A DNA stretch of 64,000 nucleotides from a candidate division TA06 bacterium SM23_40. Its GTDB lineage: Bacteria; LJUI01; SM1-40. The stretch is from the NCBI GenBank assembly GCA_001303705.1, contig LJUI01000002.1, positions 47 through 64,046 of the forward strand, read 5' to 3'. Below are positions 3,216 through 46,095 of this stretch, piece by piece. The notes under the pieces were generated by a model that saw nothing but the letters and a program-made list of their open reading frames with translations, was not told the origin of the DNA and searched no databases. Position 1 is the stretch's first letter. Every line of letters begins with the position of its first letter. The translations under genes and the position numbers were made by a program.

Positions 3216-3301
<86 letters not shown>

Positions 3302-29409: not shown

Positions 29410-29438
29410 TTGACAGCAGCGGTGCGGTGTTCTATGCT
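29410..29438 (+). promoter_or_regulatory. sigma-70-type promoter candidate for the ABC transporter operon
   Basis: TTGACA (29410-29415), 17 nt, TATGCT (29433-29438). About 165 nt upstream of the permease ATG. Confidence 0.55.
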
Positions 29439-29608: not shown

Positions 29609-30604
29609 ATGGAGATCGCGATGGCGGCGACCTCTACTCAGGCGGCAGGGCTCGGGTGGTGGCGATCAGGTCTGGGCAAGTTCGGTCCGTACCTCTACCT
29701 CCTGCCCGCTGCGCTCATCATCATCGTCTTCCGGTTCGTACCGATTCTCTACTCGGTGAGGATCAGTCTATACCGATGGGGGATCGCGGGCGCCGGTGCG
29801 TTCCTGGGCATCGGCAACTATGCCGAGATGATCCGGGATGGCATCTTCTGGCGGTCGATGCTCAACGCCTCCTACTACGTCATCGGGGTCGTCCCGCTCG
29901 GAATCGTCGTCTCGCTGTTGGCCTCTCTCCTCCTCAACACGAAAATCCGTGCCCTCGGCTTATACCGGACGGTCTACTTCCTCCCTGTGGTGACCTCGAT
30001 CATCGCCATCTCGATGGTCTGGAAGTGGATCTACAATCCGCAGCGGGGCCTGGCCAATTACCTGCTAATGAGATTCCGCTTGCCGACACTCGCCTGGCTC
30101 GAGGAGCCGAGAGGCGTCGTCGAACTCGCGTTCTCCCCGTTGGGCATCGAGGTTCCCGGGTGGTGTGCCGGGCCCAGTCTCGCCCTCGTCGCGCTCGTCA
30201 TCCTCAGCATCTGGAAGGGGCTCGGGTACAATATCGTCATCTTCCTCGCCGGGCTCCAGAACATCCCTCAGCAGTACTATGAGGCCGGGCGGATCGACGG
30301 CGCAGGGCGGCTGGGACTATTCCGCCACGTAACCTGGCCGCTCCTCTCCCCGACGACGTTCTATGTGCTCGTCATGACCACGATAGTCTCGTTCCAGGTC
30401 TTCGCTCCCGTCTGGCTCATAACGGGGCCGCCTGCCGGCGGTCCGCTCGGGACGACGAAGGTCATCGTCTACTACTTATATCAGAGGGCGTTCAACGAGG
30501 GGCGGTATGGGTACGGGAGTGCGATCGCATTCGCGCTCTTCCTGGTCATTCTCTGTCTCACGCTCGCGCAGCGGCTCGTGCTGGAGCGGAGGGTGCACTA
30601 CTGA
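29609..30604 (+). CDS. carbohydrate-type ABC transporter permease (MalF/UgpA-like)
   Basis: Six-TM profile. EAA loop YEAGRIDGAGRLGLFRHVTWPLLSP. The ATG at 29609 is preferred over the track start. Confidence 0.88.
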   Translation: MEIAMAATSTQAAGLGWWRSGLGKFGPYLYLLPAALIIIVFRFVPILYSVRISLYRWGIAGAGAFLGIGNYAEMIRDGIFWRSMLNASYYVIGVVPLGIVVSLLASLLLNTKIRALGLYRTVYFLPVVTSIIAISMVWKWIYNPQRGLANYLLMRFRLPTLAWLEEPRGVVELAFSPLGIEVPGWCAGPSLALVALVILSIWKGLGYNIVIFLAGLQNIPQQYYEAGRIDGAGRLGLFRHVTWPLLSPTTFYVLVMTTIVSFQVFAPVWLITGPPAGGPLGTTKVIVYYLYQRAFNEGRYGYGSAIAFALFLVILCLTLAQRLVLERRVHY

Positions 30605-31461
30605 TGCGGACTGACCACGCGGTGCCGTTCGTCGGGATCATGAGCAGGACGGGACGAAGGGGAATAGTGCATCTATTTCTCCTTGCCGGCGCCGTGCTCA
30701 TGCTCCTGCCCTTCATCTGGATGCTCTCGACTTCGCTCAAGAATCCTGTCGAGGCACTCCAGTTCCCGCCTACGTGGCTGCCACAGGCCCCGCGGTTTGC
30801 CAACTATGTCGAGGCGTGGCGGGCGGTTCCGTTTCCGCGTTACTTTTTCAATACTGTCCTTGTGACAGTCGCTGTTCTCACGGGCACACTCATCAGCTCG
30901 TGCTTGGCCGCGTACGCCTTCGCGCGGATGGAGTTCCGCGGACGCGAGGTACTCTTCTTCGGATTTCTCGCGGTGATGATGGTTCCCATGCCGGTGTACC
31001 TCGTGCCGAGCTATCTCATCATGTCGAAGCTCGGGTGGATCGACACATATCTCGCCCTCATCGTTCCCTGGACCGCGAGCGTCTTCACGATCTTTCTTCT
31101 GCGGCAGCACTTCCGGGCTATCCCCCGTGAACTATACGAGGCGGCCGTTATCGACGGCTGCTCGCGGCTTGGATTCCTCTGGCGGGTGGTTCTTCCTCTT
31201 TCCCGGGCGGTGCTGGTGACCGTGGCACTGTTCAGCATCATCGGCTCGTGGAACAGCTTCATGTGGCCCCTCGTCATGGTCAATTCCAAGTTGCTCCGGC
31301 CGATCCAGGTGGGGCTGGCCTATTTTGCCCAGGGAGAGGCAACAGAGTACACGCTGCTCATGGCAGCGTCCACCTTCTGCATTGCTCCTCTGGTCCTTCT
31401 CTTTTTCGTGGCGCAGCGTCAGATCATCGAGAGCTATGCGAAGACCGGGCTGAAGGAGTAG
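30604..31461 (+). CDS. carbohydrate-type ABC transporter permease (MalG/UgpE-like)
   Basis: EAA loop YEAAVIDGCSRLGFLWRVVLPLSRA. 1-nt overlap with the upstream permease gene. Confidence 0.88.
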   Translation: MRTDHAVPFVGIMSRTGRRGIVHLFLLAGAVLMLLPFIWMLSTSLKNPVEALQFPPTWLPQAPRFANYVEAWRAVPFPRYFFNTVLVTVAVLTGTLISSCLAAYAFARMEFRGREVLFFGFLAVMMVPMPVYLVPSYLIMSKLGWIDTYLALIVPWTASVFTIFLLRQHFRAIPRELYEAAVIDGCSRLGFLWRVVLPLSRAVLVTVALFSIIGSWNSFMWPLVMVNSKLLRPIQVGLAYFAQGEATEYTLLMAASTFCIAPLVLLFFVAQRQIIESYAKTGLKE

Positions 31462-31478
31462 TTCGGAGGGACCTCACA

Positions 31479-32789
31479 GTGTACACAGCTCTGCCTCAGG
31501 TGACGCGCTGGATACGGATCATCGTCTGTTCGGTTCTGCTCTGCGCCCTTTTTGCCGCTTCAGGGTGCAGGAAGAAGGGTGCCGGGATAGAGGTACCATT
31601 CTGGCATGCCATGGGAGGGGAGGTCGGCTCCGCCCTTGAAGAGATGGTCGCTGACTTCAATGCGTCGCACCCGGGGCCGCCGGTCATGCCGGTGAGCATG
31701 GGCAGCTATGAGTCGCTCTCCCAGAAGCTGATGGCCTCGGTTGCGGCAGGGGAGCCTCCTGTGCTGGCCCAGGTATACGAGTCGTGGAGTGCACAGTTCA
31801 TGGCCTCCGGTGCGGTCATGCCCATGGGTCCGTACGTCCGCGGATCGGAGGGTCTCGACCCGCAGGAGCTCGACGACATCTTCCCCGTGCTCATCGAAGG
31901 TAACACCTGGCAGGAAGAGCTATGGACCTTCCCGTTCAACAAGAGCGTTCCGGCCTTCTTCTACAACCGGGACATGTTCCGCGAGATCGGGCTCGATCCC
32001 GACCGGTTCCCCGAGACGTGGGATGAGTTCGTCCATACCGCGAGGCGTCTGACACGAGACCTCGACGGAGACGGCCGTACGGACCGGTGGGGATTTGCCA
32101 TGCCCGTCAACGTCTGGATATTCGGGTGTCTTCTGCTCGGCAACGGGGGAGCGCTCCTCAGCCCTGACGGCACCGAGGCAGCATTCGATGGGCCGGCCGG
32201 CGTGGACGCACTGGAGAAGATCGCGAAGCTGCTTAAGGAGGATCGGGTCGCCTACCTGACAACAGGGTATCAGCATCAGGACGACTTCCTTGCCGGCAAG
32301 GTCGGCATGATCCAGAGCTCGATCGCCTCGTATGCATTCATGAAATCGAAGATAACGTTCGATATCGGTATCGCCCCCTTCCCGGCTACTGAGGAGCGGG
32401 CGGTCCTCGTATACGGCACGAATGTGGCGCTGTTCGCGCGGAGCACGCCGGAACAGCGGGATCGGGCCTGGGAGTTCGTCCGCTGGTTCACCTCACCCGA
32501 GGCGCAGGCCCGGTGGTCACTGGCCACGGCCTACGTCCCCGTGAGGAGGAGCGCGCTCGAACTGCCTGCGATGAGCGGCTGGTTTGAGGAGCTTCCCGGC
32601 CTGAGGGAGACGATGCTCCAGATGGAGCACGGAAGGCTTGAGCCGAGAATTCAGGAGTGGTTTGCTGGCCGCCGCCTCCTTGGCGAGCTGGCGTTGGAAC
32701 CTGTCTTGCGCGGCCATGAAACACCTGAGCTTGGATTGAAGAAGGCGGCACGCCATTTCGATGCCGAGCTCGAGGCGGCGCGCAGATGA
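31479..32789 (+). CDS. ABC transporter extracellular solute-binding lipoprotein (family 1)
   Basis: GTG start after GGAGGG. Lipobox AASGC. The profile is typical of sugar-binding SBPs (FWHAMGG..., PFNKSVPAFFYNRDMF). The track start at 31248 lies inside the permease gene. Confidence 0.85.
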   Translation: MYTALPQVTRWIRIIVCSVLLCALFAASGCRKKGAGIEVPFWHAMGGEVGSALEEMVADFNASHPGPPVMPVSMGSYESLSQKLMASVAAGEPPVLAQVYESWSAQFMASGAVMPMGPYVRGSEGLDPQELDDIFPVLIEGNTWQEELWTFPFNKSVPAFFYNRDMFREIGLDPDRFPETWDEFVHTARRLTRDLDGDGRTDRWGFAMPVNVWIFGCLLLGNGGALLSPDGTEAAFDGPAGVDALEKIAKLLKEDRVAYLTTGYQHQDDFLAGKVGMIQSSIASYAFMKSKITFDIGIAPFPATEERAVLVYGTNVALFARSTPEQRDRAWEFVRWFTSPEAQARWSLATAYVPVRRSALELPAMSGWFEELPGLRETMLQMEHGRLEPRIQEWFAGRRLLGELALEPVLRGHETPELGLKKAARHFDAELEAARR

Positions 32790-32903: not shown

Positions 32904-35900
32904 ATGAGAGAGAGGGTCCACGCAGTCATACTGTCTGTGGCGGCACTGCTCCTGGTAGCATTGCCGGCCGGTTCTTTGACGATCTACGACATCCAGTACA
33001 CCGAGGATCCGGGCGGGGATTCGCCGTACGCGGGACAGGTCGTCACGGTCTCCGGGATCGTGACCGCAGGAACGGGCATCTTTCCCAGCGGATACTTCAT
33101 TCAGGATGGTGAGGGCCCGTGGCGCGGCGTCTATATCTATGACTATACGACGTCCGTCTCACAAGGGGACAGCGTCACGGTTACGGGAGAGGTGAGTGAG
33201 TACTACGGGAAGACCGAGATCGGCTTCATCTCGAGTGTCACTATCCACAGCTCGGACAATCAGCTCCCGGGGATGGCCGCCGTGCTCACTGCCGATCTCG
33301 CGACTGGGTCCGATGAAGCCGAATCGTACGAGGGTGTGCTCATCGCCGTTTCGAATGTCGTCGTAACCGACGACGATCTCGGGTACGGCGAATGGGAGAT
33401 CGACGATGGCTCAGGTCCGTGCCGGGTCGATGATGAGGCATACGCCTACAGCCCCTCGCTCGGAGATACGTTCCTCGTCGTTGCTGGAATCCTCGACTAC
33501 GCGTTCGATGACTTCAAGATCGAGCCGCGGTACGCTGCCGACATCATGACGAGCCTCGACGGTTCAGGCTCCGCCTCGATAGACATCGGGATGGTTCCTC
33601 CTTCCTCGACATACAACCTCAGGGTGCGGATCACGCCGGCGGCAGGGCAGCTCGTTGCCGCGAGCGTCGAACTCCCGTCGGCATGGGGGTGGAGCGGATC
33701 CGGTTCGGATGTGCTCCTCTCCGGGGCAGGGTTCGCGTCGGCGACGAGCGAGGTGATCGGGAGCGGGACGAGCGCAGACCCGTACCTGATCCTCGTACAG
33801 GACGCGGCCCTTACCGTCGCCGACTATGGGATCGTCGAGATCCGCCACACGACTTCTCCGGACAGCTCGGCATCATATCCGTTCATCATCAGTACCGCGG
33901 GGCAGGGCGGGGTGCTCACTGAGATCGCAGCTGCACCGCGGATCATTGTGACACGCGCTGACGGAACAGTCCCCATCAGCTTGGTGCGCAAGAATGACGA
34001 AGATGGACGGCCACTCCTATTGGGCGAGGCAGTGGCGGTGCGCGGCATCGTCACCGCCGGAGACGAGTTCGGTCCCCAGAGTTTCATGCAGGACGAGACA
34101 GCCGGGGTCGTCGTCTACGGGATCGAGGATGCCCTCACGCGAGGAGACGATGTCACAGTGATGGGGACTGTCGATCAGTATAGCGGGCTGACAGAGCTTG
34201 TGAGTCCCAGCCTCCTCACGCTCCACAGCACGGGCAACGCGGTCGAGCCGCTCACGCTCCATGCGATCGATATTGCCACGGAAGGAGCGGGAGGAGTAGA
34301 GCAGTACGAGGGGTTGCTGGTGCAACTCCAGGGCGTAACGATGGAAGAACCGTTCTTTCCTGTCGACGACAATGTGATGATACAGGACTCCACGGGATCC
34401 TGCCAGATGCGGATTGACGGGGATACCGAGCTTGCCGGAACTCCTGCGCCGAGAGGTGCATTTAATGTCATCGGAGTCGTCTCCCAGTATGCCCCCGACT
34501 CCCCCCACACAACTGACTATCAGGTGATGCCACGTGGACTCTCGGATATCGTTAAAGGGGGAGACGGATCGGGCACTGTCGCGCCACAGCCCAGCGGTGT
34601 GTTCCGCGGCGCCGATGTGACACTGACACTGACGGTCGCCGCAGAGCTGGGCGAACTTGTCGGCGCGAGCATCGAGGTGCCGGTCGATTGGGAATGGACC
34701 GGCGATGTGAGCGACGTGTCGCTCAGCGGCGATGGTGCGTCAGGCGCAGTCGTCGATTCTATCGTGGGGGATGGCGTCGCCGAGGCGTACGCGATCTATA
34801 TCTCTGGTGCGTTGATAACAGCGAGCGAGACGATGAGCGTAACGATCGGCCGTCTTGTTGCGCCCAGTACTCTGCTCGGCTATTCCTTCGTCACGATGAC
34901 CGCGACGGCCGGCGGCACGTTGCTGGAGGTCTCATCTTCGCCCGAAGTGTGGGTCGTGGAGCGTATCGCCGACATCCAGGCGCCGGGAGACGACGGATAT
35001 AGCTCGGCGATGGTCGGGCAGGGGGTGGTCGTCCAGGGGGTCGTCACCGGGCCCTCTCCTGTCTTCAACCCCAGCGAGGAGGCGACGAGTTTCTGGATTC
35101 AGGATGCGACAGGCGGCGTGAACGTATACAGCGGCCAGGACGACGGTAACCTGGGCCTGACGCTCGGCACGGAAGTCCGGGTGTTGGGTGAGGTTGTGGA
35201 ATATGCAGGGGTGACAGAAGTGAGTTATGATGACCCCGAAGACCTGACGATCATCGGAACGACAGCAGTGCCGGCTCCGTTCGATCTGCCGCCATCGCGG
35301 GGTATCAACGAGACAGTAGAGGGATTGCTGGTACGTATCGTGGGCGCTCAGGTTGCGACTGCGCCTCAGGCCGCTGGCGCGGGCAAGAACTTTCAGATAT
35401 GGCACGATATGGCCCTGGTCGATGTGAGGGTCGTGGACGCGGCCCAGATCGATCTCTCTCAGGTCTTCCCCGGTGCATACTTCGACCTTGTCGGGGTGGC
35501 CGGCCAGTATGATACCGATCCGCCCTATAATGCCGGATACCAGCTCCAGCTCAGAATGGCGAGCGATCTCCTGTTGCTCGATCTCGGTCAAGCATCCTCC
35601 GGCCCGGTGCTCGAGATCACGCCGAATCCGTTTTCGCCCGATCTGGGAGAAGTGGCCTCAATCAGCGTGAACGGCCCGGCATCTTCACGGCTTACTCTTC
35701 GCATCTACGACCTCGAGGGTCGGCTCGTGCTCGAGCCGCTGGACGGCAGGCCGGGAGGGCCGACGCTCTTCGAGTGGAAGGGGACGGACCAGGCGGGCGA
35801 GCGGGTAACGATAGGTATCTACCTCTGCCATTTGACGGTGGTGCGTACCGATGGGACGAGCGACACGGTGCTCAAGCCCGTGGTAGTAGGGACACCGCTC

Positions 35901-35906
35901 GATTGA
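32904..35906 (+). CDS. 1000-aa secreted modular protein, (A-B)x2-A plus T9SS/FlgD-Ig-like C-terminal domain
   Basis: Signal peptide. Three ~195-aa A modules: aa 25-215, 355-549 and 686-889. Each has G.V.V.G.VTA...F.QD...VY...GD.V.V.G.V.EY.G.TE. Two ~130-aa B modules: ELPSAWGWSGSGSDVLLSGAG and EVPVDWEWTGDVSDVSLSGDG. C-terminal ITPNPFSP...LRIYDLEGRLV...WKGTDQAGERVTIGIYL. Confidence 0.85.
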   Translation: MRERVHAVILSVAALLLVALPAGSLTIYDIQYTEDPGGDSPYAGQVVTVSGIVTAGTGIFPSGYFIQDGEGPWRGVYIYDYTTSVSQGDSVTVTGEVSEYYGKTEIGFISSVTIHSSDNQLPGMAAVLTADLATGSDEAESYEGVLIAVSNVVVTDDDLGYGEWEIDDGSGPCRVDDEAYAYSPSLGDTFLVVAGILDYAFDDFKIEPRYAADIMTSLDGSGSASIDIGMVPPSSTYNLRVRITPAAGQLVAASVELPSAWGWSGSGSDVLLSGAGFASATSEVIGSGTSADPYLILVQDAALTVADYGIVEIRHTTSPDSSASYPFIISTAGQGGVLTEIAAAPRIIVTRADGTVPISLVRKNDEDGRPLLLGEAVAVRGIVTAGDEFGPQSFMQDETAGVVVYGIEDALTRGDDVTVMGTVDQYSGLTELVSPSLLTLHSTGNAVEPLTLHAIDIATEGAGGVEQYEGLLVQLQGVTMEEPFFPVDDNVMIQDSTGSCQMRIDGDTELAGTPAPRGAFNVIGVVSQYAPDSPHTTDYQVMPRGLSDIVKGGDGSGTVAPQPSGVFRGADVTLTLTVAAELGELVGASIEVPVDWEWTGDVSDVSLSGDGASGAVVDSIVGDGVAEAYAIYISGALITASETMSVTIGRLVAPSTLLGYSFVTMTATAGGTLLEVSSSPEVWVVERIADIQAPGDDGYSSAMVGQGVVVQGVVTGPSPVFNPSEEATSFWIQDATGGVNVYSGQDDGNLGLTLGTEVRVLGEVVEYAGVTEVSYDDPEDLTIIGTTAVPAPFDLPPSRGINETVEGLLVRIVGAQVATAPQAAGAGKNFQIWHDMALVDVRVVDAAQIDLSQVFPGAYFDLVGVAGQYDTDPPYNAGYQLQLRMASDLLLLDLGQASSGPVLEITPNPFSPDLGEVASISVNGPASSRLTLRIYDLEGRLVLEPLDGRPGGPTLFEWKGTDQAGERVTIGIYLCHLTVVRTDGTSDTVLKPVVVGTPLD

Positions 35907-36006: not shown

Positions 36007-36849
36007 GTGGTAAGACAACCAGGTAGGGCCGGGCGGGGCATCGTCATCGGCCTCACGGCGCTTGCGGCTGCGCTGCCCGCGTGGGCGGCCTTCGAGGATC
36101 TGGAGTCAGGGGTGAGGCCTCAGGGGATGGGGGGAGCGTTTACCGCTGTCGCCGATGATCCGAGCGCGATCCACTGGAATCCTGCAGGGCTGGCGGCCCT
36201 GGAGGAGATCGAGTTGATTGCTCTGTACAAGCATCTGTTCGGCGGCCCCGAAGGGCTTCACAACGCCACGCTCGATGTCGCCCTGCCCACGCGATGGGGC
36301 CATTTCGGGGCCTCGCTTCAGGAGGTCGGTTTCGAGCTGGAGAGCGAGCGCGTGCTCACGCTATCGGGCGGGTTGCAGCTGACCGAGGATCTTGCGGTCG
36401 GGCTCAACGTCGTGGGGTACCAGCTGTACCAGAAGAGGTTCGGCACCGGCCTGGCTGTGGGGTTCGACGTCGGCCTATTGGCAACGGTGTACCGCCGATG
36501 GCGGCTCGGCTTCTTTGCACACAACCTCAATAATCCCACGATGGGCACGGACTACCGGTACGATCTGCCGCGCCTCGTCAACGTCGGTCTGGCGTACATA
36601 CCGTTCGAGGGGGTGATCTCGAGCCTCGATCTCTCCAAAGAGGTGGGCAAGGGGACGCGCCTCCAGGCGGGACAGGAGTTCGCCATCTTCGATGATCTGC
36701 TGGTACTGCGTGCAGGCATTCAGACCGAACCTGCACGCTATTCGGCCGGCGTCGGCACGAGAATAGAGCGGCTCCGGTTGGACTACGCGGTCCAGAACCA
36801 CGAAGTCCTTCCCCTCACCCATCAGATATCGTTCGGGTATCGGTTCTGA
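36007..36849 (+). CDS. outer-membrane beta-barrel protein, PorV/PorQ-like (family call tentative)
   Basis: GGGAG RBS then GTG. Signal peptide ending AWA. N-terminal GMGGAFTAVADDPSAIHWNPAGLA motif. Alternating beta-strand pattern. C-terminal FGYRF. Confidence 0.7.
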   Translation: MVRQPGRAGRGIVIGLTALAAALPAWAAFEDLESGVRPQGMGGAFTAVADDPSAIHWNPAGLAALEEIELIALYKHLFGGPEGLHNATLDVALPTRWGHFGASLQEVGFELESERVLTLSGGLQLTEDLAVGLNVVGYQLYQKRFGTGLAVGFDVGLLATVYRRWRLGFFAHNLNNPTMGTDYRYDLPRLVNVGLAYIPFEGVISSLDLSKEVGKGTRLQAGQEFAIFDDLLVLRAGIQTEPARYSAGVGTRIERLRLDYAVQNHEVLPLTHQISFGYRF

Positions 36850-36891: not shown

Positions 36892-39426
36892 ATGCGCAGC
36901 CCGTTCATTCTCTTGATTGCACTCGCTTCCCTCGTCGGCTCCCTCCCGGCGCCGGGGACGGTGGATGCACAGGTGGCAGGAGCGGCAGGAGAGGCGCCGG
37001 CCGAGAGGACGACGCCGTACACGCCGGACGATCAGCTCGACCTCAATAAGGCGTCGCTCGAGCAGCTCCTCTCGCTCCCCCTCGAGGCCGAGGATGCGCG
37101 TGCCATCTATGAGTGGCGTCGACGGCATGGCCCGTTTCAGAGCGTGTACGGGCTGCGAAGGATCGAGCAGATCGACGGCGCCGAGTTCGAGCGGATCAAA
37201 CCCCTTCTCTTCGTCGCTCCACCCGAGCTGGCGCAGGAGGTTACACAGCGGATCGAAGAGATACAGAGACGGCTTGCCCGCGAGGAGACGCCTGCCGCGG
37301 CTGCCATCGATGAGTGGGAAGATCTGGTTGTCGATCCCCTTGATATCAACCGCGCGACGGTCGACGATCTGGTTATGCTCGATGACGTGTCGCTCGTCGA
37401 TGCGGTGGCCGTCGTCAAGCATCGGATGACCCGCGGCCGGATCGATGACCTTCGCGCCCTGCGGCGCAACGTACGCGGCCTCACCTACTACGGATATACC
37501 AGGATGCGGGATTTCGTCCGGTTCGATCCCCGTCCCGAGGGACTCGATTTCCATGGCCTCTATCGGGTGATCATCGATCACCGCTCCGAGGTCGACGTCG
37601 GCGAGGACGATGAAAACCTCGATCTTCTGACGAGCCGGCTTGAGGCTTCAGTGGCCGGGCTCGCGCCGGGATCGGGAGAGGAGGAGCCGGGAGCAAATCT
37701 CGAGGGATTGCAGCAGGCAGGTTGGACTGATCAGGAGATCGACCGGCTCAGGGGTGAGCTCGAGCAGGATCTTGTATCGATCAGGGGGATTCCTGCTGAA
37801 CCGCGGATCCTCCAGAAGGTACGGGCGCGCTGGGGACGCCGCATCAAGCTCGGGTTCGTCGCAGAACGGGATCCGGGGGAGAGGACGGATGATCTGGTCA
37901 AGGGGTACCTGGGCCTGTACGACATGGGGCCGATCGATCGTCTCATCCTCGGCACATACCGGCTCACGCTCGGGCAGTCACTCGTCATCGATAATGACGA
38001 GCCGGGAGGATATGAGTCCCCGTTCCGGCGGACTGACCGGATCGCGGGCCTGTTCGGCGATGCCACCGCATCCGAAGAGTTCATCTTCCGCGGCGCTGCC
38101 ATGCAGGCGAGCCTGGGCAGGATCCGCCCCCTGGTCTTCTATTCGCGCGACCGCAAGGACGCCATCCTCAACCGGGACGGGACTGCGAACAGCCTCATTA
38201 CGAGCTGGCCCCGGCCCGAGAGCACCAGGGATCGGCTGCTCGAGAGGACGTTCGGGGGGAGTCTGCGGTTTGATCTGGGAGGCCTGGGGCCCCTCCCGAT
38301 CGGCACGTATGTCGCCGCCAATGGATACGAGGCGGACTACGACCCCGGGGTCCGCATCGATCCGACCACGCTCGACATCCCCGGGGATGGAGACACTCTG
38401 AGGGACCCGAACTACCTTCAGGCGTTCAGCGGTGATCGGCGCCGCGTGTACGGAACAGACTTCCGCACGCTCCTCGGCAATGTCTCCGTCGAGGGCGAGT
38501 ACGGGAGGCTCGATGGCGGGGGCGATGCGTTGGTTCTGAAGGCCCGGGCGCAGTACGAATACCTCTACCTGCTCGGGCTGTACCGCCGGTACGACGCCGA
38601 TTTCGATAATCCGTACGCCCGCCCGTTTATGGAGCAGCGGAAGTACGACGATACGCTCTTCGAGAGAGAGTACCGCCTGCTCAATCCCCTTCATTCATAT
38701 CTTCAAGACTACCCCGCCCCGAAAGCCGAAGAGGGGCTCTATTTCGAGACCCGCTATCAGATCACCCGAAAGATCATCATCACCAGAGCATATCTCGACA
38801 CGTGGCGCAACGTGGCCTGGGGGTTGCCCAACCTCCGGATCCAGGGAGAGATCGAGTACCGACCCGTCTTTCCTCTCCGCTTCCGGCTGAAGCAGAAGTG
38901 GCAGCGTAAGTCGAATCCCGGCGATGTGGTGGCGACGACCTCGCGCACCAGCGAGACGACACTGCGGGCATTCGCACTCCTCAGCCAGCGTGACTTCTTC
39001 GGACTGGAGCTCCGGTACGGGCGGGTGCGGCTCACTCCCACGCTCCGATGGGGAGGCGACATGATGATGGACGGGGGGTTCCTATCCGGGAACTGGGAGC
39101 ATCATTTCTCTCCCGCGCTGTCAGTGCAGTCGGGCATCGTCATCTGGGAGACGAACGGCATGTCCCAGTGGACATTCGAAGACAGAGGAATCGATTTCCT
39201 CAATGGACGGGGGATGAGGTATTACATCACGGTACTCGATCAGCTCTCGCCCGGCCTGAGCCTCCGTTTCAAATTCAGAAAGAAGAACACCGAATTGCCC
39301 CATTCGGGCATCTATGGACCGGAGAGTGAGTACAGGTACGGAGGCGGATCGGCCGTTCCGGTGAAGGATTTCGTCGATTATCAGGATGAGTATTCGGCGA
39401 GCATTCAGCTCGACTTCCGCTGGTAA
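36892..39426 (+). CDS. outer-membrane beta-barrel protein with two N-terminal ComEA-like helix-hairpin-helix domains
   Basis: Signal peptide (VDA/Q). HhH 1 (aa 48-108): LDLNKASLEQLLSLPLEAEDARAIYEWRRRHGPFQSVYGLRRIEQIDGAEFERIKPLLFV. HhH 2 (aa 148-211): LDINRATVDDLVMLDDVSLVDAVAVVKHRMTRGRIDDLRAL. The C-terminal ~500 aa are Y/R/G-rich alternating strands ending IQLDFRW. Confidence 0.8.
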   Translation: MRSPFILLIALASLVGSLPAPGTVDAQVAGAAGEAPAERTTPYTPDDQLDLNKASLEQLLSLPLEAEDARAIYEWRRRHGPFQSVYGLRRIEQIDGAEFERIKPLLFVAPPELAQEVTQRIEEIQRRLAREETPAAAAIDEWEDLVVDPLDINRATVDDLVMLDDVSLVDAVAVVKHRMTRGRIDDLRALRRNVRGLTYYGYTRMRDFVRFDPRPEGLDFHGLYRVIIDHRSEVDVGEDDENLDLLTSRLEASVAGLAPGSGEEEPGANLEGLQQAGWTDQEIDRLRGELEQDLVSIRGIPAEPRILQKVRARWGRRIKLGFVAERDPGERTDDLVKGYLGLYDMGPIDRLILGTYRLTLGQSLVIDNDEPGGYESPFRRTDRIAGLFGDATASEEFIFRGAAMQASLGRIRPLVFYSRDRKDAILNRDGTANSLITSWPRPESTRDRLLERTFGGSLRFDLGGLGPLPIGTYVAANGYEADYDPGVRIDPTTLDIPGDGDTLRDPNYLQAFSGDRRRVYGTDFRTLLGNVSVEGEYGRLDGGGDALVLKARAQYEYLYLLGLYRRYDADFDNPYARPFMEQRKYDDTLFEREYRLLNPLHSYLQDYPAPKAEEGLYFETRYQITRKIIITRAYLDTWRNVAWGLPNLRIQGEIEYRPVFPLRFRLKQKWQRKSNPGDVVATTSRTSETTLRAFALLSQRDFFGLELRYGRVRLTPTLRWGGDMMMDGGFLSGNWEHHFSPALSVQSGIVIWETNGMSQWTFEDRGIDFLNGRGMRYYITVLDQLSPGLSLRFKFRKKNTELPHSGIYGPESEYRYGGGSAVPVKDFVDYQDEYSASIQLDFRW

Positions 39427-39530: not shown

Positions 39531-40742
39531 ATGTTCATCAACAGGGGGCTTCGCGCGCCCGCAGCGGCTCTTGTCGTGCTGGTGGCCGCGCTGAGTGCGG
39601 CGGGCGCGTCCGGGTATACGTTGCCGGGCGTGAGGTCGTTCGGGGACCCGGTGAGCGGGCAGGGGGCGCGATCGATGGCGATGGGGGGAACAGGTATCGC
39701 TGCTGACCCGGGCCTGGGACGCCTCTTCGTCAATCCTGCACTCCTCGGGTTCGCCCGGCGCGGCAGAATAGAGGCCTCGCTGGGCGTGGCGCGGCCCGGT
39801 GAGGTACGCACGCAGGAGGTGTTCGACAGCTTCGACAATACGGTGGGGGAAGCCACGCTCGCGGCGAACACAAGCTACTACATCCGCCCTGCCCTCTGGG
39901 GAGTCATGCAGCCGTTGGGGAGGTTTGTGGTGGCGGCCGGCGGGAGAGAACGGTACGACTTCGACTACGATTTCCATCAGGAGATCCGCGACAACTTCTA
40001 CTACCGGCTGGGGAGCCGCGACCTCGTGGTACGGGGAGGGCTGTACGAGTGGAGCCTCGGCGTGGGCATGTGCCCGAGTGCGTCGGTCGGCCTGGGTGCG
40101 GCCGTCAACCTGCTCCGCGGAGACGCGGAGTGGAGGTGGGAGGTGGAGGATTCATCGGTCGATACGACCGAGACATCGAGCGCGAATCTCGATGGGTGGG
40201 ACGTTACGGTGGGCGCTGCGGCGAGGATCGGGGAGCGCGTCGTGCTCGGGTTGATGGCGCGCAGGGGAGCTGAGGTGGGATGGGAGGCGGAGTCGGGTTC
40301 TATTGATGACGCGACTGTCGACTATCCGCCGTTGCTCGGGGCGGGGCTCGAGGTCACGCCGGCAAACCAGTTTCCGGCGATCCTGAGCTGGGATGTGCTG
40401 TACATCCCCTGGTCCGACCTGACGGTCGATGGTGAGGAGGCCGACCTCGACGATGTGTGGGAGGTGAGGTTCGGCGTCGAGCACGAGATGACCGATGGGC
40501 TCCTCGTCAGGATCGGCTTCCGATGGGAGCCGTCGTACGTCAACGAGGAGATCGCGCAGGCGGTGGTGGCGACCGGGCTCGGGTGGGAGGTCAAGGGATT
40601 CGGCATCGATCTGGCCACCGAGCTCGGAAGACGAGGATACCGGAGCTCGGAGGTGACCGCATCTGACGTCGACTTCCCGGAGCCGGTCGAGGTGGAGGAG
40701 ACTCTCGTGCGTCTGGCAGCGACGGTGTGGAGAGAGTTCTAG
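39531..40742 (+). CDS. outer-membrane beta-barrel protein (FadL/PorV-like, tentative)
   Basis: GAGGGAG RBS then the ATG at 39531. Signal peptide. GARSMAMGGTGIAADPGLGRLFVNPALLG motif. Ends ATVWREF. Confidence 0.7.
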   Translation: MFINRGLRAPAAALVVLVAALSAAGASGYTLPGVRSFGDPVSGQGARSMAMGGTGIAADPGLGRLFVNPALLGFARRGRIEASLGVARPGEVRTQEVFDSFDNTVGEATLAANTSYYIRPALWGVMQPLGRFVVAAGGRERYDFDYDFHQEIRDNFYYRLGSRDLVVRGGLYEWSLGVGMCPSASVGLGAAVNLLRGDAEWRWEVEDSSVDTTETSSANLDGWDVTVGAAARIGERVVLGLMARRGAEVGWEAESGSIDDATVDYPPLLGAGLEVTPANQFPAILSWDVLYIPWSDLTVDGEEADLDDVWEVRFGVEHEMTDGLLVRIGFRWEPSYVNEEIAQAVVATGLGWEVKGFGIDLATELGRRGYRSSEVTASDVDFPEPVEVEETLVRLAATVWREF

Positions 40743-40875: not shown

Positions 40876-42426
40876 ATGATGAGGTATACGCGCATGAGGA
40901 GCGCGCTCCTTGCGCTGGTGCTCGCTCTGATCGTTCTGGGGAGCGCCCCGGCGGATGAGTACCAGCACCTGATCATTCTCCACACCAATGACATACATGG
41001 AAGTCTGGCGCCGGTGGATGCGTGGTGGCTGAATCCGGATTTCCCGCCGCCCGTCGGCAATGGCGCTGCCGCAATGACGATCATCGATCGGGAACGGGCG
41101 AATGCGGAGAAGCACGGATACGGATTTCTGCTCCTCGATGCGGGAGATTTCTACCAGGGGACGCCGCTCGGGGATTTTTCCAGGGGCGAGGCGGTAATCG
41201 AGTTCCTGAACCACGCTGGCTATGATGTGATGAGCCTGGGCAATCACGACTATGCAGATGGACAGGAGAACCTGTACGAGCGCGCTGCGCAGGCCGACTT
41301 CCCCTTCCTCGGCGCCAACATTCTGATAGAACAGACAGGTGAACTGCCTCCCTATGCGAGGCGGCATATCAAACTGGAACGGGGTGGTGTGAAGATCGGG
41401 ATATTCGGTCTCATCACCCAGTACATGAAGGGGATGGCGAGGCCGGAAGACATCGAGGGGCTGGAGTTCCTCGAGGAAGCTCCGGTAGCGGCGGAGTGTG
41501 TGGAGGAGCTGAGGGCCGAAGGTGTCGACATCATCATCGGCCTCACACACATCGGGTATCGCCACGATAGGCGCCTCGTCCAGCAAGTCCGGGGAATCGA
41601 CGTCATCATCGGGGGGCACAGTCATACCGGATTGCGAGACCCGTACGAGTCGTTCTCCAATCATACTGTCGTCTGCCAGACATTTGGCCACCTGACGACA
41701 GTGGGCAGGCTCGAGCTGTTGATCGATCGTGAGACGAACCGTATCGCCGGGTATGAGGGGAAGCTGTTTGAACTGTACGCCGAGGAGGTACCGCTCGATC
41801 AAGAGGCGCTCGCACTGGTCGGGAAGTGGGTCGAGAAGGCGGAGCAGGGGCTGGACGAGGTGATCGGCTCATCAGCTGCCGAGCTTACCCGGGCGGGCAT
41901 GGAGGAATCCCCTATGGGGAACCTCATTACGGATGCGATGCGCCTGCGATTCGGGGTCGACGTGGTGATGCACAACAGTGGTGGGATCACGGGCACGCTG
42001 CCAAAGGGAGTCCTCACCTATCGGAATGCGTATGAAGCAGATGCCTATGCCAATACCGTTGTCACCATGGTGTTGAGTGGGCGTCAAGTGTGGGACCTGC
42101 TCGAAGTGAGCGTGAACCGCCACCACGCAATCTTCCAGGTCTCGGGTGTGAGGATGGTCTATGATGTGACTCGCCCGATCGGCGAGCGCGTGCTCGAGGT
42201 GGAGGTTGGTGGGGAACCCCTCGATTTCGATCGCGATTATACGGTGGCAACAAACAGCTTCCTTGCCGCCGGAGGCGGCGAATATGAGATATTCGGCCAG
42301 GGCCGGGACTGGACCGACACCGGCGTCTATATCCGGGATGTCATCGCGAGCTATGTGCGCGCCCACTCCCCTATCGACGCGAAGGTGGAGGGACGGATCA
42401 TCGACCTGTCGGTTTCACTCCGTTAG
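40876..42426 (+). CDS. bifunctional metallophosphatase/5'-nucleotidase (UshA family), secreted
   Basis: Signal peptide. Calcineurin-like motifs HTNDIHG, DAGDFYQGT, GNHDY and GGHSH. C-terminal 5'-nucleotidase substrate-binding region (NSGGITGTL, NSFLAAGGGEY). Confidence 0.9.
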   Translation: MMRYTRMRSALLALVLALIVLGSAPADEYQHLIILHTNDIHGSLAPVDAWWLNPDFPPPVGNGAAAMTIIDRERANAEKHGYGFLLLDAGDFYQGTPLGDFSRGEAVIEFLNHAGYDVMSLGNHDYADGQENLYERAAQADFPFLGANILIEQTGELPPYARRHIKLERGGVKIGIFGLITQYMKGMARPEDIEGLEFLEEAPVAAECVEELRAEGVDIIIGLTHIGYRHDRRLVQQVRGIDVIIGGHSHTGLRDPYESFSNHTVVCQTFGHLTTVGRLELLIDRETNRIAGYEGKLFELYAEEVPLDQEALALVGKWVEKAEQGLDEVIGSSAAELTRAGMEESPMGNLITDAMRLRFGVDVVMHNSGGITGTLPKGVLTYRNAYEADAYANTVVTMVLSGRQVWDLLEVSVNRHHAIFQVSGVRMVYDVTRPIGERVLEVEVGGEPLDFDRDYTVATNSFLAAGGGEYEIFGQGRDWTDTGVYIRDVIASYVRAHSPIDAKVEGRIIDLSVSLR

Positions 42427-42744
42427 ATGCGAGAGATCCCGGGCGGACCGACAGAAGCGATCTGTCCGGGATAGCGCCTGCCGATTCGTGTCTCTTCTCT
42501 ACGTACCCTGCTCGACCCTCGAGATCAATAATAACACGGAACCACGAGTAGGCGGGATCTCCCGTCCGCCTCAATCGGATCGCCCGCGCTCGGCGACGCA
42601 TATGCGAGTCCGTTCGCCCCGGGCGATTTGTCGTATCGTTGCGGGTTCGGTTCCGAGGCTGGACAAGGTGCACTGCCGCATCCGAGTCCCCCCGCGTGAC
42701 CGATACCGTCGGTCTGTTCGGCATATCATACAAGGAGGAGGGCC

Positions 42745-44135: not shown

Positions 44136-44362
44136 TGGTGAGTGTCTGTCTTCTCTCCCTCTCACACTGCCTCGAGCGGCTCCACGCCCGAGGAGACTGC
44201 TCCAGGGCGCCTCGGAGGTGGCGCCTGACACTCCGCATGTCTGGGGGGGTTCGGGCGAACGCTCCCCGGGGCTGTGGCAAGGTGTGGCCACCTTGAAGTC
44301 AGGGCGTGATAATACGCTTTACGGTGGATGTTGTGGAGCGGGAACTTGTGCGTGGAGTCTGC

Positions 44363-44391
44363 TTGATATCGGGGTCGATCTGTGGTACACT
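44363..44391 (+). promoter_or_regulatory. sigma-70-type promoter candidate
   Basis: TTGATA, 17 nt, TACACT. About 70 nt upstream of the ATG at 44461. Confidence 0.5.
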
Positions 44392-44460
44392 AGAAGCTTG
44401 GTGGCGCCCACTATTGTAGCAGACTGCTCTGTCGCACTCAACACCGACTGGAGGACCTAC

Positions 44461-45921: not shown

Positions 45922-45973
45922 CGCTCATCCATCCGGGGTGAGGCAGGCATGATTTCCGGGATGCATAATTTTC

Positions 45974-46002
45974 TTGACGACAATCGGTCTGTGTGATAAG
46001 GT
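45974..46002 (+). promoter_or_regulatory. sigma-70-type promoter candidate
   Basis: TTGACG, 17 nt, TAAGGT. Upstream of the LTD protein gene. Confidence 0.4.
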
Positions 46003-46095
46003 CCGGGATGACTTGTTACCGGATCATGTGGGACGATGAAAGGAGGCAATAGAGGCACGTCAACGTCTGCATAACGTACCGGAGGGTGGACAGTT

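What the first reader, a model, noticed from the sequence alone, without database searches (positions are those of the whole stretch)
36892..39426. Tandem ComEA-like helix-hairpin-helix domains fused to a ~500-aa outer-membrane beta-barrel
Seen: a cleavable signal peptide is followed by two ~60-aa segments with the ComEA pattern (L.LN.A..E.L..LP......A..I...R...G.F....L). Then comes a long Y/G/R/D-rich alternating-strand region ending in the OMP-type terminus LDFRW. ComEA is normally a periplasmic or membrane-anchored DNA receptor of competence systems. Covalent fusion to a large barrel would put a DNA-binding module at the outer membrane. That is the architecture expected for a DNA-conducting or DNA-tethering porin. 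I cannot say from memory whether this fusion family has been characterised.
Basis: partly seen in the sequence, partly recalled or inferred. Interest (0 to 1): 0.65.

Follow-up and report, generated by a model that had tools for sequence, protein, structure and literature searches.

The report
ComEA-like domains fused to outer-membrane barrel
An uncharacterised outer-membrane channel protein of uncultured bacteria carries two DNA-receptor-like (ComEA-type) domains on its predicted inner face and always sits among genes for binding and breaking down extracellular DNA, so it may be a new route for DNA across the outer membrane.

Summary
Window 36892-39426 (+) encodes an 844-aa secreted protein. 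It has two ComEA-type HhH modules, each above Pfam's HHH_3 threshold on its own. Behind them AlphaFold2 predicts a barrel of about 24 strands that resembles only outer-membrane barrels.

The barrel spans about 625 aa, not 500. Loop/turn alternation places the HhH modules in the periplasm, not on the surface.

The protein belongs to an unnamed family: 158 matches in species-representative genomes, all listed ones from metagenome-assembled genomes, mostly WOR-3, Fermentibacteria and Edwardsbacteria. The gene sits in a conserved same-strand cassette:
- a secreted triple-OB-fold DUF5689 protein with a T9SS-type tail;
- a PorV/PorQ-like small barrel (68 of 69 loci);
- the HhH-barrel;
- a FadL-like barrel;
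- a 5'-nucleotidase;
- in subsets, an ABC importer, a PLD-type Nuc-like protein or RecJ.

DUF5689 proteins are the proposed DNA-binding partners in the Bacteroides ddb DNA-utilisation locus and the Riemerella transformation system. No TonB-dependent transporter is present here.

Best reading (about 0.45): an outer-membrane conduit for extracellular DNA or oligonucleotides, with a tethered periplasmic ComEA-like ratchet.

Caveats: no DNA binding or conduction is shown, the first HhH hairpin is degenerate, the HhH modules are not basic, and the window's cassette has no recognisable nuclease.

The parts
36892..39426 (+). Gene for the 844-aa HhH-barrel protein (whole ORF including the stop codon)
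   Evidence: ORF and translation. 18 homologues at 29-100% identity over 90-100% of the length. 158 matches in species-representative genomes.
36892..36969 (+). Signal peptide, aa 1-26 (MRS / hydrophobic core / VDA|Q), type I, no lipobox
   Evidence: Read from the sequence. Homologues also start with a short hydrophobic N-terminus. No predictor was run.
37033..37209 (+). HhH module 1 (aa 48-106), ComEA-type HHH_3. The first hairpin is one residue shorter than in ComEA (LP-LEA versus LPGIG).
   Evidence: Pfam HHH_3 at 40.9 bits, E = 2.2e-10 on its own. Aligns to ComEA 8DSS and to EEPD1 9YI2.
37210..37338 (+). Acidic linker (aa 107-149) with the nearly invariant motif A-I-D-E-W-E-D-L; role unknown
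   Evidence: W142 and D144 are invariant. Net charge is -1 to -11. pLDDT is below 50 over aa 112-139.
37339..37521 (+). HhH module 2 (aa 150-210), divergent HHH_3
   Evidence: Pfam HHH_3 at 30.1 bits, E = 5.2e-7 on its own. Similar to module 1 at E = 3e-6.
37549..37584 (+). Predicted barrel strand 1 (aa 220-231, conserved GNYR..YD)
   Evidence: DSSP of the AF2 model. Amphipathic alternation. R225 is invariant.
37585..37803 (+). 73-aa acidic helical insert between strands 1 and 2 (aa 232-304). Predicted extracellular loop L1 or a lumen plug.
   Evidence: Helices at 243-256, 270-275 and 280-298. Net charge over aa 236-304 is -2 to -13 across the family. The position comes from the strand order.
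37804..39420 (+). Barrel strands 2-24 (aa 305-843), ending in the OMP-type C-terminus LDFRW
   Evidence: AF2 DSSP. Foldseek matches are outer-membrane barrels. Long loops alternate with short turns, and predicted lumen-facing residues are net +11 to +17 in all 18 homologues.
29621..32789 (+). ABC importer: two BPD_transp_1 permeases (29621-30604, 30604-31461) and a lipoprotein UgpB-like SBP_bac_1 binding protein (31479-32789). No ATPase gene in the cassette.
   Evidence: Pfam, NCBIfam, gene calls on identical contigs. The binding-protein gene lies upstream in 20 of 45 related loci with enough flank.
32904..35906 (+). 1000-aa secreted protein: three OB-fold (ExeM/NucH N-terminal-like / DUF5689) modules, Ig-like spacers and a C-terminal FlgD_ig / T9SS-type sorting domain. 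No nuclease domain found.
   Evidence: Pfam DUF5689 E = 1.4e-12, tRNA_anti-codon OB fold, FlgD_ig. NCBIfam ExeM_NucH_DNase E = 5.8e-27 in 3 stretches, below cut-off. AF2 pLDDT 85.5. Foldseek match to the p204 HIN-dsDNA complex 5Z7D, probability 1.00. Present upstream in 35 of 52 loci.
36007..36849 (+). 280-aa small outer-membrane barrel of the PorV/PorQ type, ending in ...FGYRF; stop codon 42 nt before the HhH-barrel start codon
   Evidence: NCBIfam PorV_fam E = 3.4e-15, below cut-off. Pfam UPF0164. Adjacent upstream in 68 of 69 loci with at least 1 kb of flank.
39531..40742 (+). 403-aa FadL/PorV/BamG-like outer-membrane barrel, ending in ...VWREF
   Evidence: Weak matches to Toluene_X, BamG and PorV_fam. 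Signal peptide. Adjacent downstream in 57 of 72 loci, and also next to distant relatives.
40876..42426 (+). UshA-like 5'-nucleotidase (Metallophos + 5_nucleotid_C) with a signal peptide
   Evidence: Pfam, NCBIfam, N-terminus. Within 4 kb downstream in 45 of 57 loci.

Best explanation
The gene encodes an outer-membrane beta-barrel of about 24 strands. Its N-terminal 200 residues form two ComEA-type helix-hairpin-helix modules that hang into the periplasm. It is the core of a conserved cassette for capturing extracellular nucleic acid, passing it through the outer membrane and breaking it down.

Proposed sequence of events (all steps inferred):
1. A secreted triple-OB-fold / DUF5689 protein binds extracellular DNA at the cell surface. 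It may be held there through its T9SS-type C-terminal domain by the adjacent PorV/PorQ-like small barrel.
2. DNA or oligonucleotides enter the wide, positively lined lumen of the HhH-barrel.
3. The tethered periplasmic HhH modules bind the incoming strand and bias its movement inward. This would be a built-in version of the ComEA Brownian ratchet, working without a pilus, secretin or TonB.
4. Periplasmic enzymes, including the UshA-like 5'-nucleotidase and in some lineages a PLD-type Nuc-like protein, convert the nucleic acid to small products. These are then taken up, in some lineages through the adjacent ABC system.

Shown here: the domain architecture, the barrel fold prediction, the family and the conserved gene neighbourhood.

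Inferred: the periplasmic orientation, DNA binding, conduction through the barrel, the anchoring role of the small barrel, and a nutritional purpose.
For: - Both HhH modules pass Pfam's HHH_3 threshold individually. They align to the ComEA DNA-binding domain and to the tandem HhH modules of EEPD1.
- The AF2 model has 24 long strands, and its listed Foldseek matches are essentially all outer-membrane barrels (FimD, MtrB, FrpB, AlgE, FadL, porins).
- Connections alternate between long and short. The long ones are 73, 8, 38, 26, 26, 4, 45, 4, 8, 9, 17 and 22 residues; the short ones are 3, 4, 4, 11, 2, 3, 4, 2, 4, 4 and 2. The protein also has an OMP-type aromatic C-terminus. This is the classic loop/turn pattern and puts the N-terminus of strand 1 in the periplasm.
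- Predicted lumen-facing residues are net +11 to +17 in all 18 homologues, with 27 conserved basic and 12 conserved acidic positions. The barrel region as a whole is near neutral.
- Synteny across 80 loci from WOR-3, Fermentibacteria, Edwardsbacteria, Cloacimonadota, TA06, Latescibacterota and Hydrothermota: PorV/Q-like barrel upstream in 68 of 69, FadL-like barrel downstream in 57 of 72, 5'-nucleotidase in 45 of 57, DUF5689/OB protein in 35 of 52. A PLDc_2 protein of 192 aa is inserted in 7 loci, and RecJ follows in 13 of 51.
- The upstream protein shares its OB-fold N-terminal module with ExeM/NucH extracellular nucleases. Its homologues are labelled 'predicted extracellular nuclease', and some carry EEP nuclease (PF03372) or LTD domains. 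Its model matches the p204 HIN-dsDNA complex.
- DUF5689 proteins are the proposed DNA-binding partners of the outer-membrane transporter in the B. thetaiotaomicron ddbABCDEF DNA-utilisation locus (PMC12478041). A DUF5689 protein is essential for natural transformation in Riemerella anatipestifer, which also needs an outer-membrane barrel and a separate multi-HhH protein predicted to be periplasmic (PMC8459023). The present protein unites the barrel and HhH roles in one chain.
- All cassette products carry signal peptides.
- A promoter-like site at 29410 and a terminator-like hairpin at 42608 bracket the cassette (weak evidence).
Against: - No experiment exists. Every listed genome carrying the family is a metagenome-assembled genome of an uncultured organism.
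- Hairpin 1 of module 1 lacks the G-h-G turn and is one residue shorter than in ComEA.
- The modules are not basic: module 1 is -6 to +3 and module 2 is -1 to +5. They fail the NCBIfam ComEA cut-offs.
- Model coordinates could not be inspected. It is therefore unverified that strand 220-231 lies in the barrel wall, or whether the lumen is open or plugged by the acidic insert or the long loops.
- The lumen-charge estimate is a crude alternation analysis.
- The window's own cassette contains no recognisable endonuclease.
- The binding protein is UgpB-like (CUT1 type), not a known nucleoside-binding type.
- Distant relatives sit in loci dominated by giant LTD/fn3 surface proteins and SpoVG-domain proteins rather than catabolic enzymes.
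Confidence: 0.45

Rival explanations
1. It is the outer-membrane DNA translocon of a pilus-independent natural-transformation system. The mechanics are the same as in the best explanation, but the imported dsDNA is handed to ComEC for recombination rather than degraded for food.
For: ComEA-type modules define competence DNA receptors. The Riemerella transformation system uses a DUF5689 protein, an outer-membrane barrel and an HhH protein (PMC8459023). The ddb paper argues that transformation and DNA-utilisation systems are evolutionarily related (PMC12478041). RecJ lies near the cassette in the window and directly follows the 5'-nucleotidase gene in WOR-3 loci.
Against: The conserved partners are catabolic or uptake genes: 5'-nucleotidase, a PLD-type Nuc-like protein and an ABC importer. 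No ComEC, DprA or ComF domain was found among the large ORFs of the 64-kb window. RecJ is a cytoplasmic housekeeping exonuclease.
Confidence: 0.15
2. It is a substrate-specific porin for small anions released from nucleic acids (nucleotides, short oligonucleotides, phosphate). The HhH modules do not bind DNA. They serve as a periplasmic scaffold, for example to dock the 5'-nucleotidase or another partner.
For: The lumen is positively lined. The HhH hairpins are degenerate and the modules are not basic. HhH-fold domains with non-DNA roles exist outside the cytoplasm; related proteins also hit the PsbU and T2SS-K HhH-like families. A conserved acidic linker motif (AIDEWEDL) looks like a protein-protein interface. 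The 5'-nucleotidase is the most regular enzymatic partner.
Against: A 24-strand barrel is far wider than small solutes need. Distant branches of the family keep strong canonical tandem HHH_3 modules, E = 1e-36 to 1e-43, which suggests that DNA binding is ancestral. The upstream partner looks built to bind polymeric DNA, with three OB-fold modules.
Confidence: 0.15
3. It is an assembly, secretion or anchoring component for cell-surface proteins: a T9SS accessory, or an usher-like platform for the CTD-bearing OB-fold or LTD proteins. It would not be a conduit for nucleic acid.
For: PorV/PorQ-like barrels flank it on both sides, and a cargo with a T9SS-type C-terminal domain lies upstream. The top Foldseek match is the 24-strand FimD usher. 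Distant relatives lie beside giant LTD/fn3 surface proteins and a PorP/SprF-like gene.
Against: No usher, PapC or T9SS-component family matches the protein. Foldseek TM-scores are low (0.2-0.34) and spread over unrelated barrel classes. No chaperone or pilin genes are nearby. This reading does not explain the HhH modules, the basic lumen or the conserved 5'-nucleotidase.
Confidence: 0.15
4. It is a surface tether for extracellular DNA used in adhesion or the biofilm matrix. The HhH modules would be exported to the cell surface through the barrel, as in an autotransporter.
For: N-terminal passengers are exported through C-terminal barrels in type V secretion (established knowledge).
Against: Only about 14 residues separate module 2 from strand 1. 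The even strand count and the loop/turn pattern put the N-terminus in the periplasm. Type V barrels have 12-16 strands and a lumen-crossing linker, which is not seen here.
Confidence: 0.05

Closest known systems
ComEA, the periplasmic or membrane-anchored DNA receptor of competence systems (e.g. Vibrio cholerae ComEA, PMC3879209; Gram-positive ComEA structures 8DSS/8DFK, PMC9747964)
   Same: It has the same HHH_3 domain type, extracytoplasmic location and predicted periplasmic position. The proposed role is also the same: binding incoming DNA so that it is retained in the periplasm.
   Different: ComEA is a small soluble or inner-membrane-anchored protein with one HhH domain, and it works behind a type IV pilus and the PilQ secretin. 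Here two modules are fused to a large outer-membrane barrel, hairpin 1 is degenerate, the modules are not basic, and the NCBIfam ComEA cut-offs are not reached.
DdbC-DdbD of the Bacteroides thetaiotaomicron ddbABCDEF DNA-utilisation locus (PMC12478041), and the related Riemerella anatipestifer transformation proteins RA0C_RS04915, RA0C_RS04920 and RA0C_RS02645 (PMC8459023)
   Same: The locus logic matches. A DUF5689 protein with HIN-like OB folds sits at the surface next to an outer-membrane barrel, with nucleic-acid-processing enzymes in the same locus. Riemerella additionally needs an HhH protein predicted to be periplasmic. All belong to the wider FCB group of bacteria.
   Different: The barrel here is not a TonB-dependent transporter: no Plug, TonB_dep_Rec or CarboxypepD_reg match was found. 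The HhH function is fused to the barrel. The DUF5689 protein carries a T9SS-type tail instead of a lipid anchor. PorV/PorQ- and FadL-like barrels are added. The window's cassette has no recognisable nuclease.
PilQ secretin, the DNA conduit of type-IV-pilus-based competence
   Same: The proposed function is the same: a wide outer-membrane opening through which DNA reaches ComEA.
   Different: PilQ is a multimeric secretin gated by a retracting pilus. This protein is predicted to be a single-chain 24-strand barrel with no pilus genes nearby.
Large monomeric outer-membrane barrels such as the FimD/PapC ushers (24 strands) and MtrB (26 strands)
   Same: They share size class and fold and are the best Foldseek matches. 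In the ushers a wide lumen is closed by an internal plug, which is a possible analogy for the acidic insert.
   Different: There is no sequence-family match, no usher N- or C-terminal domains, and no chaperone, pilin or cytochrome partners. TM-scores are only 0.28-0.34.

Membership tests
ComEA (competence DNA receptor) | HHH_3 (PF12836) domain above Pfam's gathering score | tested here: met
   Whole protein 59.6 bits. Module 1 scores 40.9 bits and module 2 scores 30.1 bits against a cut-off of 27.
ComEA (competence DNA receptor) | Reaches the NCBIfam ComEA model cut-offs (TIGR01259 and TIGR00426) | tested here: not met
   37.3 bits against a cut-off of 152.35, and 30.8 bits against 53.1.
ComEA (competence DNA receptor) | Canonical G-h-G hairpins and a basic DNA-binding surface | tested here: inconclusive
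   Hairpin 1 is shortened (LP-LEA versus LPGIG). Hairpin 2 keeps P-G-[IMV] in most homologues but not in the window protein. Net charge is -3 for module 1 and +2 for module 2. Distant relatives have canonical modules.
ComEA (competence DNA receptor) | Small stand-alone periplasmic or membrane-anchored protein, genetically linked to comEC or other competence genes | tested here: not met
   The protein has 844 aa and is fused to a barrel. No ComEC, DprA or ComF domain was found among the large ORFs of the window.
ComEA (competence DNA receptor) | Sequence-independent DNA binding | not testable with these tools
   Needs EMSA or anisotropy with the purified N-terminal fragment.
Ddb-type DNA-utilisation / Riemerella-type DNA-uptake locus | DUF5689 surface protein with HIN-like OB folds encoded next to the outer-membrane transporter | tested here: met
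   Pfam DUF5689 E = 1.4e-12. Foldseek match to the p204 HIN-dsDNA complex. The gene lies two genes upstream and is conserved in 35 of 52 loci.
Ddb-type DNA-utilisation / Riemerella-type DNA-uptake locus | The transporter is a TonB-dependent receptor (DdbC / RA0C_RS04915 type) | tested here: not met
   No Plug, TonB_dep_Rec or CarboxypepD_reg match in the HhH-barrel at E <= 1. None was found in the cassette neighbours either.
Ddb-type DNA-utilisation / Riemerella-type DNA-uptake locus | Secreted or periplasmic nucleases encoded in the locus | tested here: inconclusive
   No nuclease domain was found in the window's cassette. A 5'-nucleotidase is present. A PLDc_2 protein of 192 aa occurs in 7 related loci. 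Two cassette-adjacent proteins have no family match.
Ddb-type DNA-utilisation / Riemerella-type DNA-uptake locus | Locus required for depletion or uptake of exogenous DNA | not testable with these tools
   Needs genetics or heterologous reconstitution. All carriers are uncultured.
Integral outer-membrane beta-barrel protein | Closed antiparallel barrel with amphipathic strands, long loops alternating with short turns, and a C-terminal aromatic beta-signal | tested here: met
   AF2 DSSP shows 24 strands. Listed Foldseek matches are outer-membrane barrels. All 24 strands are amphipathic and the loop/turn alternation holds. The terminal residue is W or F in 17 of 18 homologues.
Chaperone-usher pathway usher (FimD/PapC) | Usher sequence family with its N- and C-terminal and plug domains, plus adjacent chaperone and pilin genes | tested here: not met
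   No Pfam usher or PapC match. Neighbours are PorV/FadL-like barrels, a 5'-nucleotidase and an OB-fold protein. Foldseek TMq is only 0.28-0.32.

The most novel reading that the evidence does not exclude
This family is a previously unrecognised kind of outer-membrane DNA translocon. A single-chain barrel of about 24 strands would pass polymeric DNA without a type IV pilus, secretin or TonB, driven only by its own tethered ComEA-like periplasmic ratchet. It would be gated by an acidic, DNA-mimicking insert. It would work together with a T9SS-delivered triple-OB-fold DNA catcher held by a PorQ-like anchor. This would be the main route by which several uncultured FCB-group phyla (WOR-3, Fermentibacteria, Edwardsbacteria and others) feed on, or acquire, environmental DNA.
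Probability: 0.25. Interest if true: 0.85.

Novelty: new variant of a known kind. Interest (0 to 1): 0.66.

Why it matters
How DNA crosses the outer membrane is understood only for pilus/secretin systems. For Bacteroidota it has recently been proposed to occur through DUF5689-assisted TonB-dependent transporters.

A conserved fusion of the periplasmic DNA receptor to a large barrel works like a Rosetta-stone clue. It suggests that receptor and channel act together, and it points to a third, simpler solution.

The question becomes directly testable in vitro: DNA binding by a 190-aa fragment, and channel recordings with DNA.

The family is widespread in uncultured sediment, hot-spring and digester lineages. 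It may therefore also mark who consumes extracellular DNA, a large pool of organic phosphorus and nitrogen, in those habitats.

Tried and rejected
- **Family matches for the barrel.** Pfam and NCBIfam scans at E <= 1 found only the HhH models. A sequence search of the PDB matched only the HhH part.
- **Barrel class from Foldseek.** The search could not assign a specific class. Matches spread over ushers, TonB-dependent receptors, AlgE, FadL, porins, MtrB and SlpA, with TM-scores of 0.13-0.34. The usher and TonB-receptor readings were rejected on missing family features.
- **A hidden nuclease in the 1000-aa upstream protein.** The AF2 model plus Foldseek showed only OB, Ig-like and HIN-like folds.
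- **Literature.** Six full-text searches found no description of the fusion. They did find the DUF5689 link (PMC8459023, PMC12478041).
- **Homology to the Riemerella HhH protein RA0C_RS02645.** The paper places its HhH domain at aa 236-301, a different layout.
- **Taxon of the window.** It could not be fixed. Identical contigs are unlabelled metagenome assemblies. Gene order is closest to the Edwardsbacteria loci L001, L002 and L037.
- **Promoter and terminator scans.** These give only weak support for the operon boundaries.
- **Mobile-element or artefact origin.** Rejected. The flanks are housekeeping genes on one strand, and the gene is conserved in many lineages.


Full report
**1. The observation**

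Window 36892-39426 (+) is an ATG-started ORF of 844 codons, preceded by a Shine-Dalgarno-like GGAACAGGAG. The N-terminus has a short basic head, a hydrophobic core and VDA|Q, so it reads as a type-I signal peptide. No predictor was available.

Pfam HHH_3 matches at E = 3.2e-16 in two stretches. Scanned separately, aa 48-106 scores 40.9 bits and aa 150-210 scores 30.1 bits against a cut-off of 27. The two modules also match each other at E = 3e-6. PDB sequence matches cover only this part: the tandem HhH modules of EEPD1 (9YI2), ComEA (8DSS, 8DFK, 2DUY) and KIF22.

An AlphaFold2 model built on 18 homologues has pLDDT 74.5 and pTM 0.69. It shows the two helical modules, one strand at 220-231, a helical segment at 232-304, and then 23 long strands to residue 843. 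Foldseek against the PDB gave 312 matches at E <= 0.001. The 50 listed are outer-membrane barrels, apart from one S-layer complex built on such a barrel.

The barrel is about 625 aa, not about 500.

**2. Anatomy and topology**

Counting DSSP strands gives 24. All 24 show amphipathic alternation across the family.

Connections alternate between long and short. The long ones are 73, 8, 38, 26, 26, 4, 45, 4, 8, 9, 17 and 22 residues. The short ones are 3, 4, 4, 11, 2, 3, 4, 2, 4, 4 and 2 residues. The chain ends in an aromatic residue in 17 of 18 homologues.

By the established rule for outer-membrane proteins (short periplasmic turns, long external loops, C-terminus in the periplasm), strand 1 starts in the periplasm. 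The HhH modules end about 14 residues before it, so they should be periplasmic. This is an inference: I could not open the model's coordinates to confirm barrel closure or lumen occupancy.

A crude assignment of lumen-facing residues, taking the less hydrophobic register of each strand, gives a net charge of +11 to +17 in all 18 homologues. There are 27 conserved basic and 12 conserved acidic positions. The barrel region as a whole is near neutral.

The 73-aa insert between strands 1 and 2 is acidic (-2 to -13) and carries a conserved AGW[TS]..EI..LR motif. The linker between the HhH modules carries a nearly invariant AIDEWEDL motif. Neither has an explained role.

Two points count against simple ComEA-like behaviour:
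- Hairpin 1 of module 1 is one residue shorter than in ComEA and lacks the G-h-G turn.
- The modules are not basic: module 1 is -6 to +3 and module 2 is -1 to +5.

More distant branches of the family, such as a Caldisericota protein, keep strong canonical tandem HHH_3 modules at E = 1e-36 to 1e-43.

**3. The family**

The word-indexed search found 18 proteins at 29-100% identity over 90-100% of the query. The exhaustive profile search found 162 clusters (50% identity) at E <= 1e-30. Full-length members have about 780-890 aa.

In species-representative genomes, 158 stretches encode a relative. The 80 fetched are all from metagenome-assembled genomes: WOR-3, Fermentibacteria / Aegiribacteria / Sabulitectum, Edwardsbacteria, Cloacimonadota, TA06, Latescibacterota and Hydrothermota.

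Sources name the proteins only 'hypothetical', 'helix-hairpin-helix domain-containing' or 'ComEA-like'. No Pfam or NCBIfam model covers the barrel.

**4. The neighbourhood**

All cassette genes lie on the + strand. In the window the order is as follows.

| Position | Product | Evidence |
|---|---|---|
| 29621-31461 | two ABC permeases | |
| 31479-32789 | UgpB-like lipoprotein binding protein | |
| 32904-35906 | 1000-aa secreted OB-fold / DUF5689 protein | |
| 36007-36849 | 280-aa PorV/PorQ-family barrel | |
| 36892-39426 | HhH-barrel | |
| 39531-40742 | 403-aa FadL/PorV/BamG-like barrel | |
| 40876-42426 | UshA-like 5'-nucleotidase | |

All of these products have signal peptides.

I ran tblastn of these proteins against the 80 loci. 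Counting only loci with enough flank gives these frequencies:

| Neighbour | Loci with it |
|---|---|
| Small PorV/Q-like barrel directly upstream | 68 of 69 |
| FadL-like barrel directly downstream | 57 of 72 |
| 5'-nucleotidase within 4 kb downstream | 45 of 57 |
| OB-fold / DUF5689 protein within 4 kb upstream | 35 of 52 |
| Binding protein upstream | 20 of 45 |
| RecJ downstream | 13 of 51 |

The median gap between the small barrel gene and the HhH-barrel gene is 44 nt. De novo clustering of neighbouring ORFs added a 192-aa PLDc_2 protein in 7 loci. By size and family this is probably a Nuc-type endonuclease. In the locus examined (L022) it lies between the FadL-like and 5'-nucleotidase genes.

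The 1000-aa protein matches DUF5689 twice. It matches the OB-fold N-terminal region of ExeM/NucH extracellular nucleases three times (E = 5.8e-27, below that model's full-length cut-off). It ends in a FlgD_ig / T9SS-type sorting domain. Its homologues are labelled 'predicted extracellular nuclease' or 'YhcR', and some relatives carry EEP nuclease and LTD domains.

Its AF2 model (pLDDT 85.5) is all-beta, with three OB-pair modules, Ig-like spacers and the tail. Among generic multi-domain matches it hits the p204 HIN-dsDNA complex at probability 1.00. No nuclease fold appears.

The rest of the window is housekeeping: trigger factor, ClpX, Lon, HtrA, sigma-70, M16 peptidases, TldD, PyrF, YicC, Gmk, UDG, DnaB, MlaE, RadA and IspDF. 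The cassette is therefore chromosomal, not part of a mobile element.

**5. Link to known systems**

DUF5689 occurs in two experimentally studied systems.

In Riemerella anatipestifer, transformation requires three outer-envelope proteins (PMC8459023):
- a DUF5689 protein (RA0C_RS04920);
- the adjacent outer-membrane barrel with a carboxypeptidase-regulatory-like domain (RA0C_RS04915);
- a separate multi-HhH protein predicted to be periplasmic (RA0C_RS02645).

In Bacteroides thetaiotaomicron, the ddbABCDEF locus is required for depletion of exogenous DNA (PMC12478041). DdbC is a TonB-dependent transporter. DdbD is a DUF5689 protein modelled as its DNA-binding lid, with similarity to the p202 HIN domain. 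DdbA, DdbB and DdbF are nucleases.

The present cassette has the DUF5689/HIN-like protein and nucleic-acid enzymes but no TonB-dependent transporter. In its place stands a barrel fused to HhH modules. The fusion thus joins two functions that Riemerella needs as separate proteins. That is suggestive, not proof. The barrels are not homologous by any test I could run, and homology to the Riemerella HhH protein could not be tested.

**6. Mechanism**

I think the following is most likely, with a confidence of about 0.45 for the whole chain:
1. The OB-fold protein catches DNA at the surface. It may be anchored through its sorting domain to the PorV/PorQ-like barrel. The analogy is PorQ-PorZ and PorV-PorU in the T9SS attachment complex, which I take from established knowledge and did not test here.
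2. DNA or oligonucleotides pass the basic lumen of the 24-strand barrel.
3. The tethered HhH modules retain and ratchet the strand inward, as proposed for ComEA in Vibrio cholerae (PMC3879209).
4. Periplasmic enzymes produce nucleotides and nucleosides for uptake.

Architecture, family and synteny are shown. Orientation, DNA binding, conduction, anchoring and purpose are inferred.

The rivals are:
- the same machine feeding transformation (0.15);
- a small-anion porin whose HhH modules are scaffolds (0.15);
- an accessory for secreting or anchoring surface proteins (0.15);
- a surface DNA tether (0.05).

The neighbourhoods of two distant relatives include giant LTD/fn3 proteins, SpoVG-domain proteins and a second HHH_3 protein. 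They still keep the FadL-like gene directly downstream. This keeps the surface-assembly rival alive, but it also preserves the nucleic-acid-binding theme.

**7. Novelty and verdict**

The protein is not a member of ComEA proper, of the TonB-dependent Ddb transporters or of the ushers. In each case at least one defining feature was tested and not met. It plausibly works like a ComEA joined to a DNA channel within a Ddb-like locus.

I rate it a new variant of a known kind: DUF5689-associated DNA acquisition and ComEA-assisted uptake. There is a real chance (about 0.25) that it is a new class of pilus- and TonB-independent DNA translocon.

Interest is 0.66. The architecture and its conservation would surprise people working on DNA uptake and on outer-membrane proteins, and it yields simple decisive experiments. 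Set against that, function is wholly inferred and all carriers are uncultured.

Noticed in passing
window 46096-46755 (+): A secreted 219-aa protein with a lamin-tail domain (LTD, E = 5.9e-13). LTDs recur in the extracellular-nuclease-like relatives of the OB-fold protein and next to distant HhH-barrel relatives. It may therefore belong to the same nucleic-acid theme.
   Followed up: partly
window 48044-49741 (+); WOR-3 loci such as L015:15078-16700: RecJ (DHH, DHHA1, RecJ_OB) lies 5.6 kb downstream of the 5'-nucleotidase gene in the window. In 13 of 51 related loci, mostly WOR-3, it lies within 7 kb downstream of the HhH-barrel gene and usually follows the 5'-nucleotidase gene directly. Whether this linkage is functional or accidental is unknown.
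   Followed up: partly
window 42745-44121 (+): A 458-aa protein with a signal peptide and an OMP-like C-terminus (...GWTIRF) but no family match. The 448-aa protein at the same position in the Edwardsbacteria-like locus L002 (15321-16667) carries a T9SS sorting domain; homology between the two was not established.
   Followed up: partly
window 25527-27614 (+): A subtilase (Peptidase_S8) with a FlgD_ig / Por_Secre_tail C-terminal domain, which suggests that the organism uses a T9SS-type sorting system. C25 peptidases with the same tail flank the cassette in WOR-3 and Hydrothermota loci.
   Followed up: no
L022:13548-14126 and six other related loci: A 192-aa PLDc_2 protein, probably a Nuc-type endonuclease, belongs to a neighbour cluster found in 7 loci. 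In L022 it lies between the FadL-like and 5'-nucleotidase genes. It is absent from the window's cassette.
   Followed up: partly
L085:6139-7929 and L086:6736-8004: Distant HhH-barrel relatives are preceded by a second, barrel-less HHH_3 protein (596 and 422 aa). They sit among SpoVG-domain proteins, LTD proteins and a giant LTD/fn3 surface protein. This is a different and unexplained locus type.
   Followed up: no
window 1-64000: Nearly all large genes are on the + strand, and GC skew is positive in 31 of 32 two-kb blocks. This is consistent with a long leading-strand stretch of one replichore. A single tRNA-Leu lies at 3216-3301.
   Followed up: no
window about 44200-46100 versus locus L081: Gene calls on the otherwise identical contig L081 imply a 1-nt offset relative to the window somewhere between 44121 and 46096. 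They also give a 408-aa gene where the window has a 567-aa ORF (44218-45921) in another frame. This could be an indel or frameshift between assemblies.
   Followed up: no
window 29410-29438 and 42608-42626 (+): A promoter-like site (10 of 12 matches) lies ahead of the first permease gene, and a terminator-like hairpin lies after the 5'-nucleotidase gene. Together they bracket a possible 13-kb operon. These are consensus scans only, and FCB-group promoters may differ.
   Followed up: no
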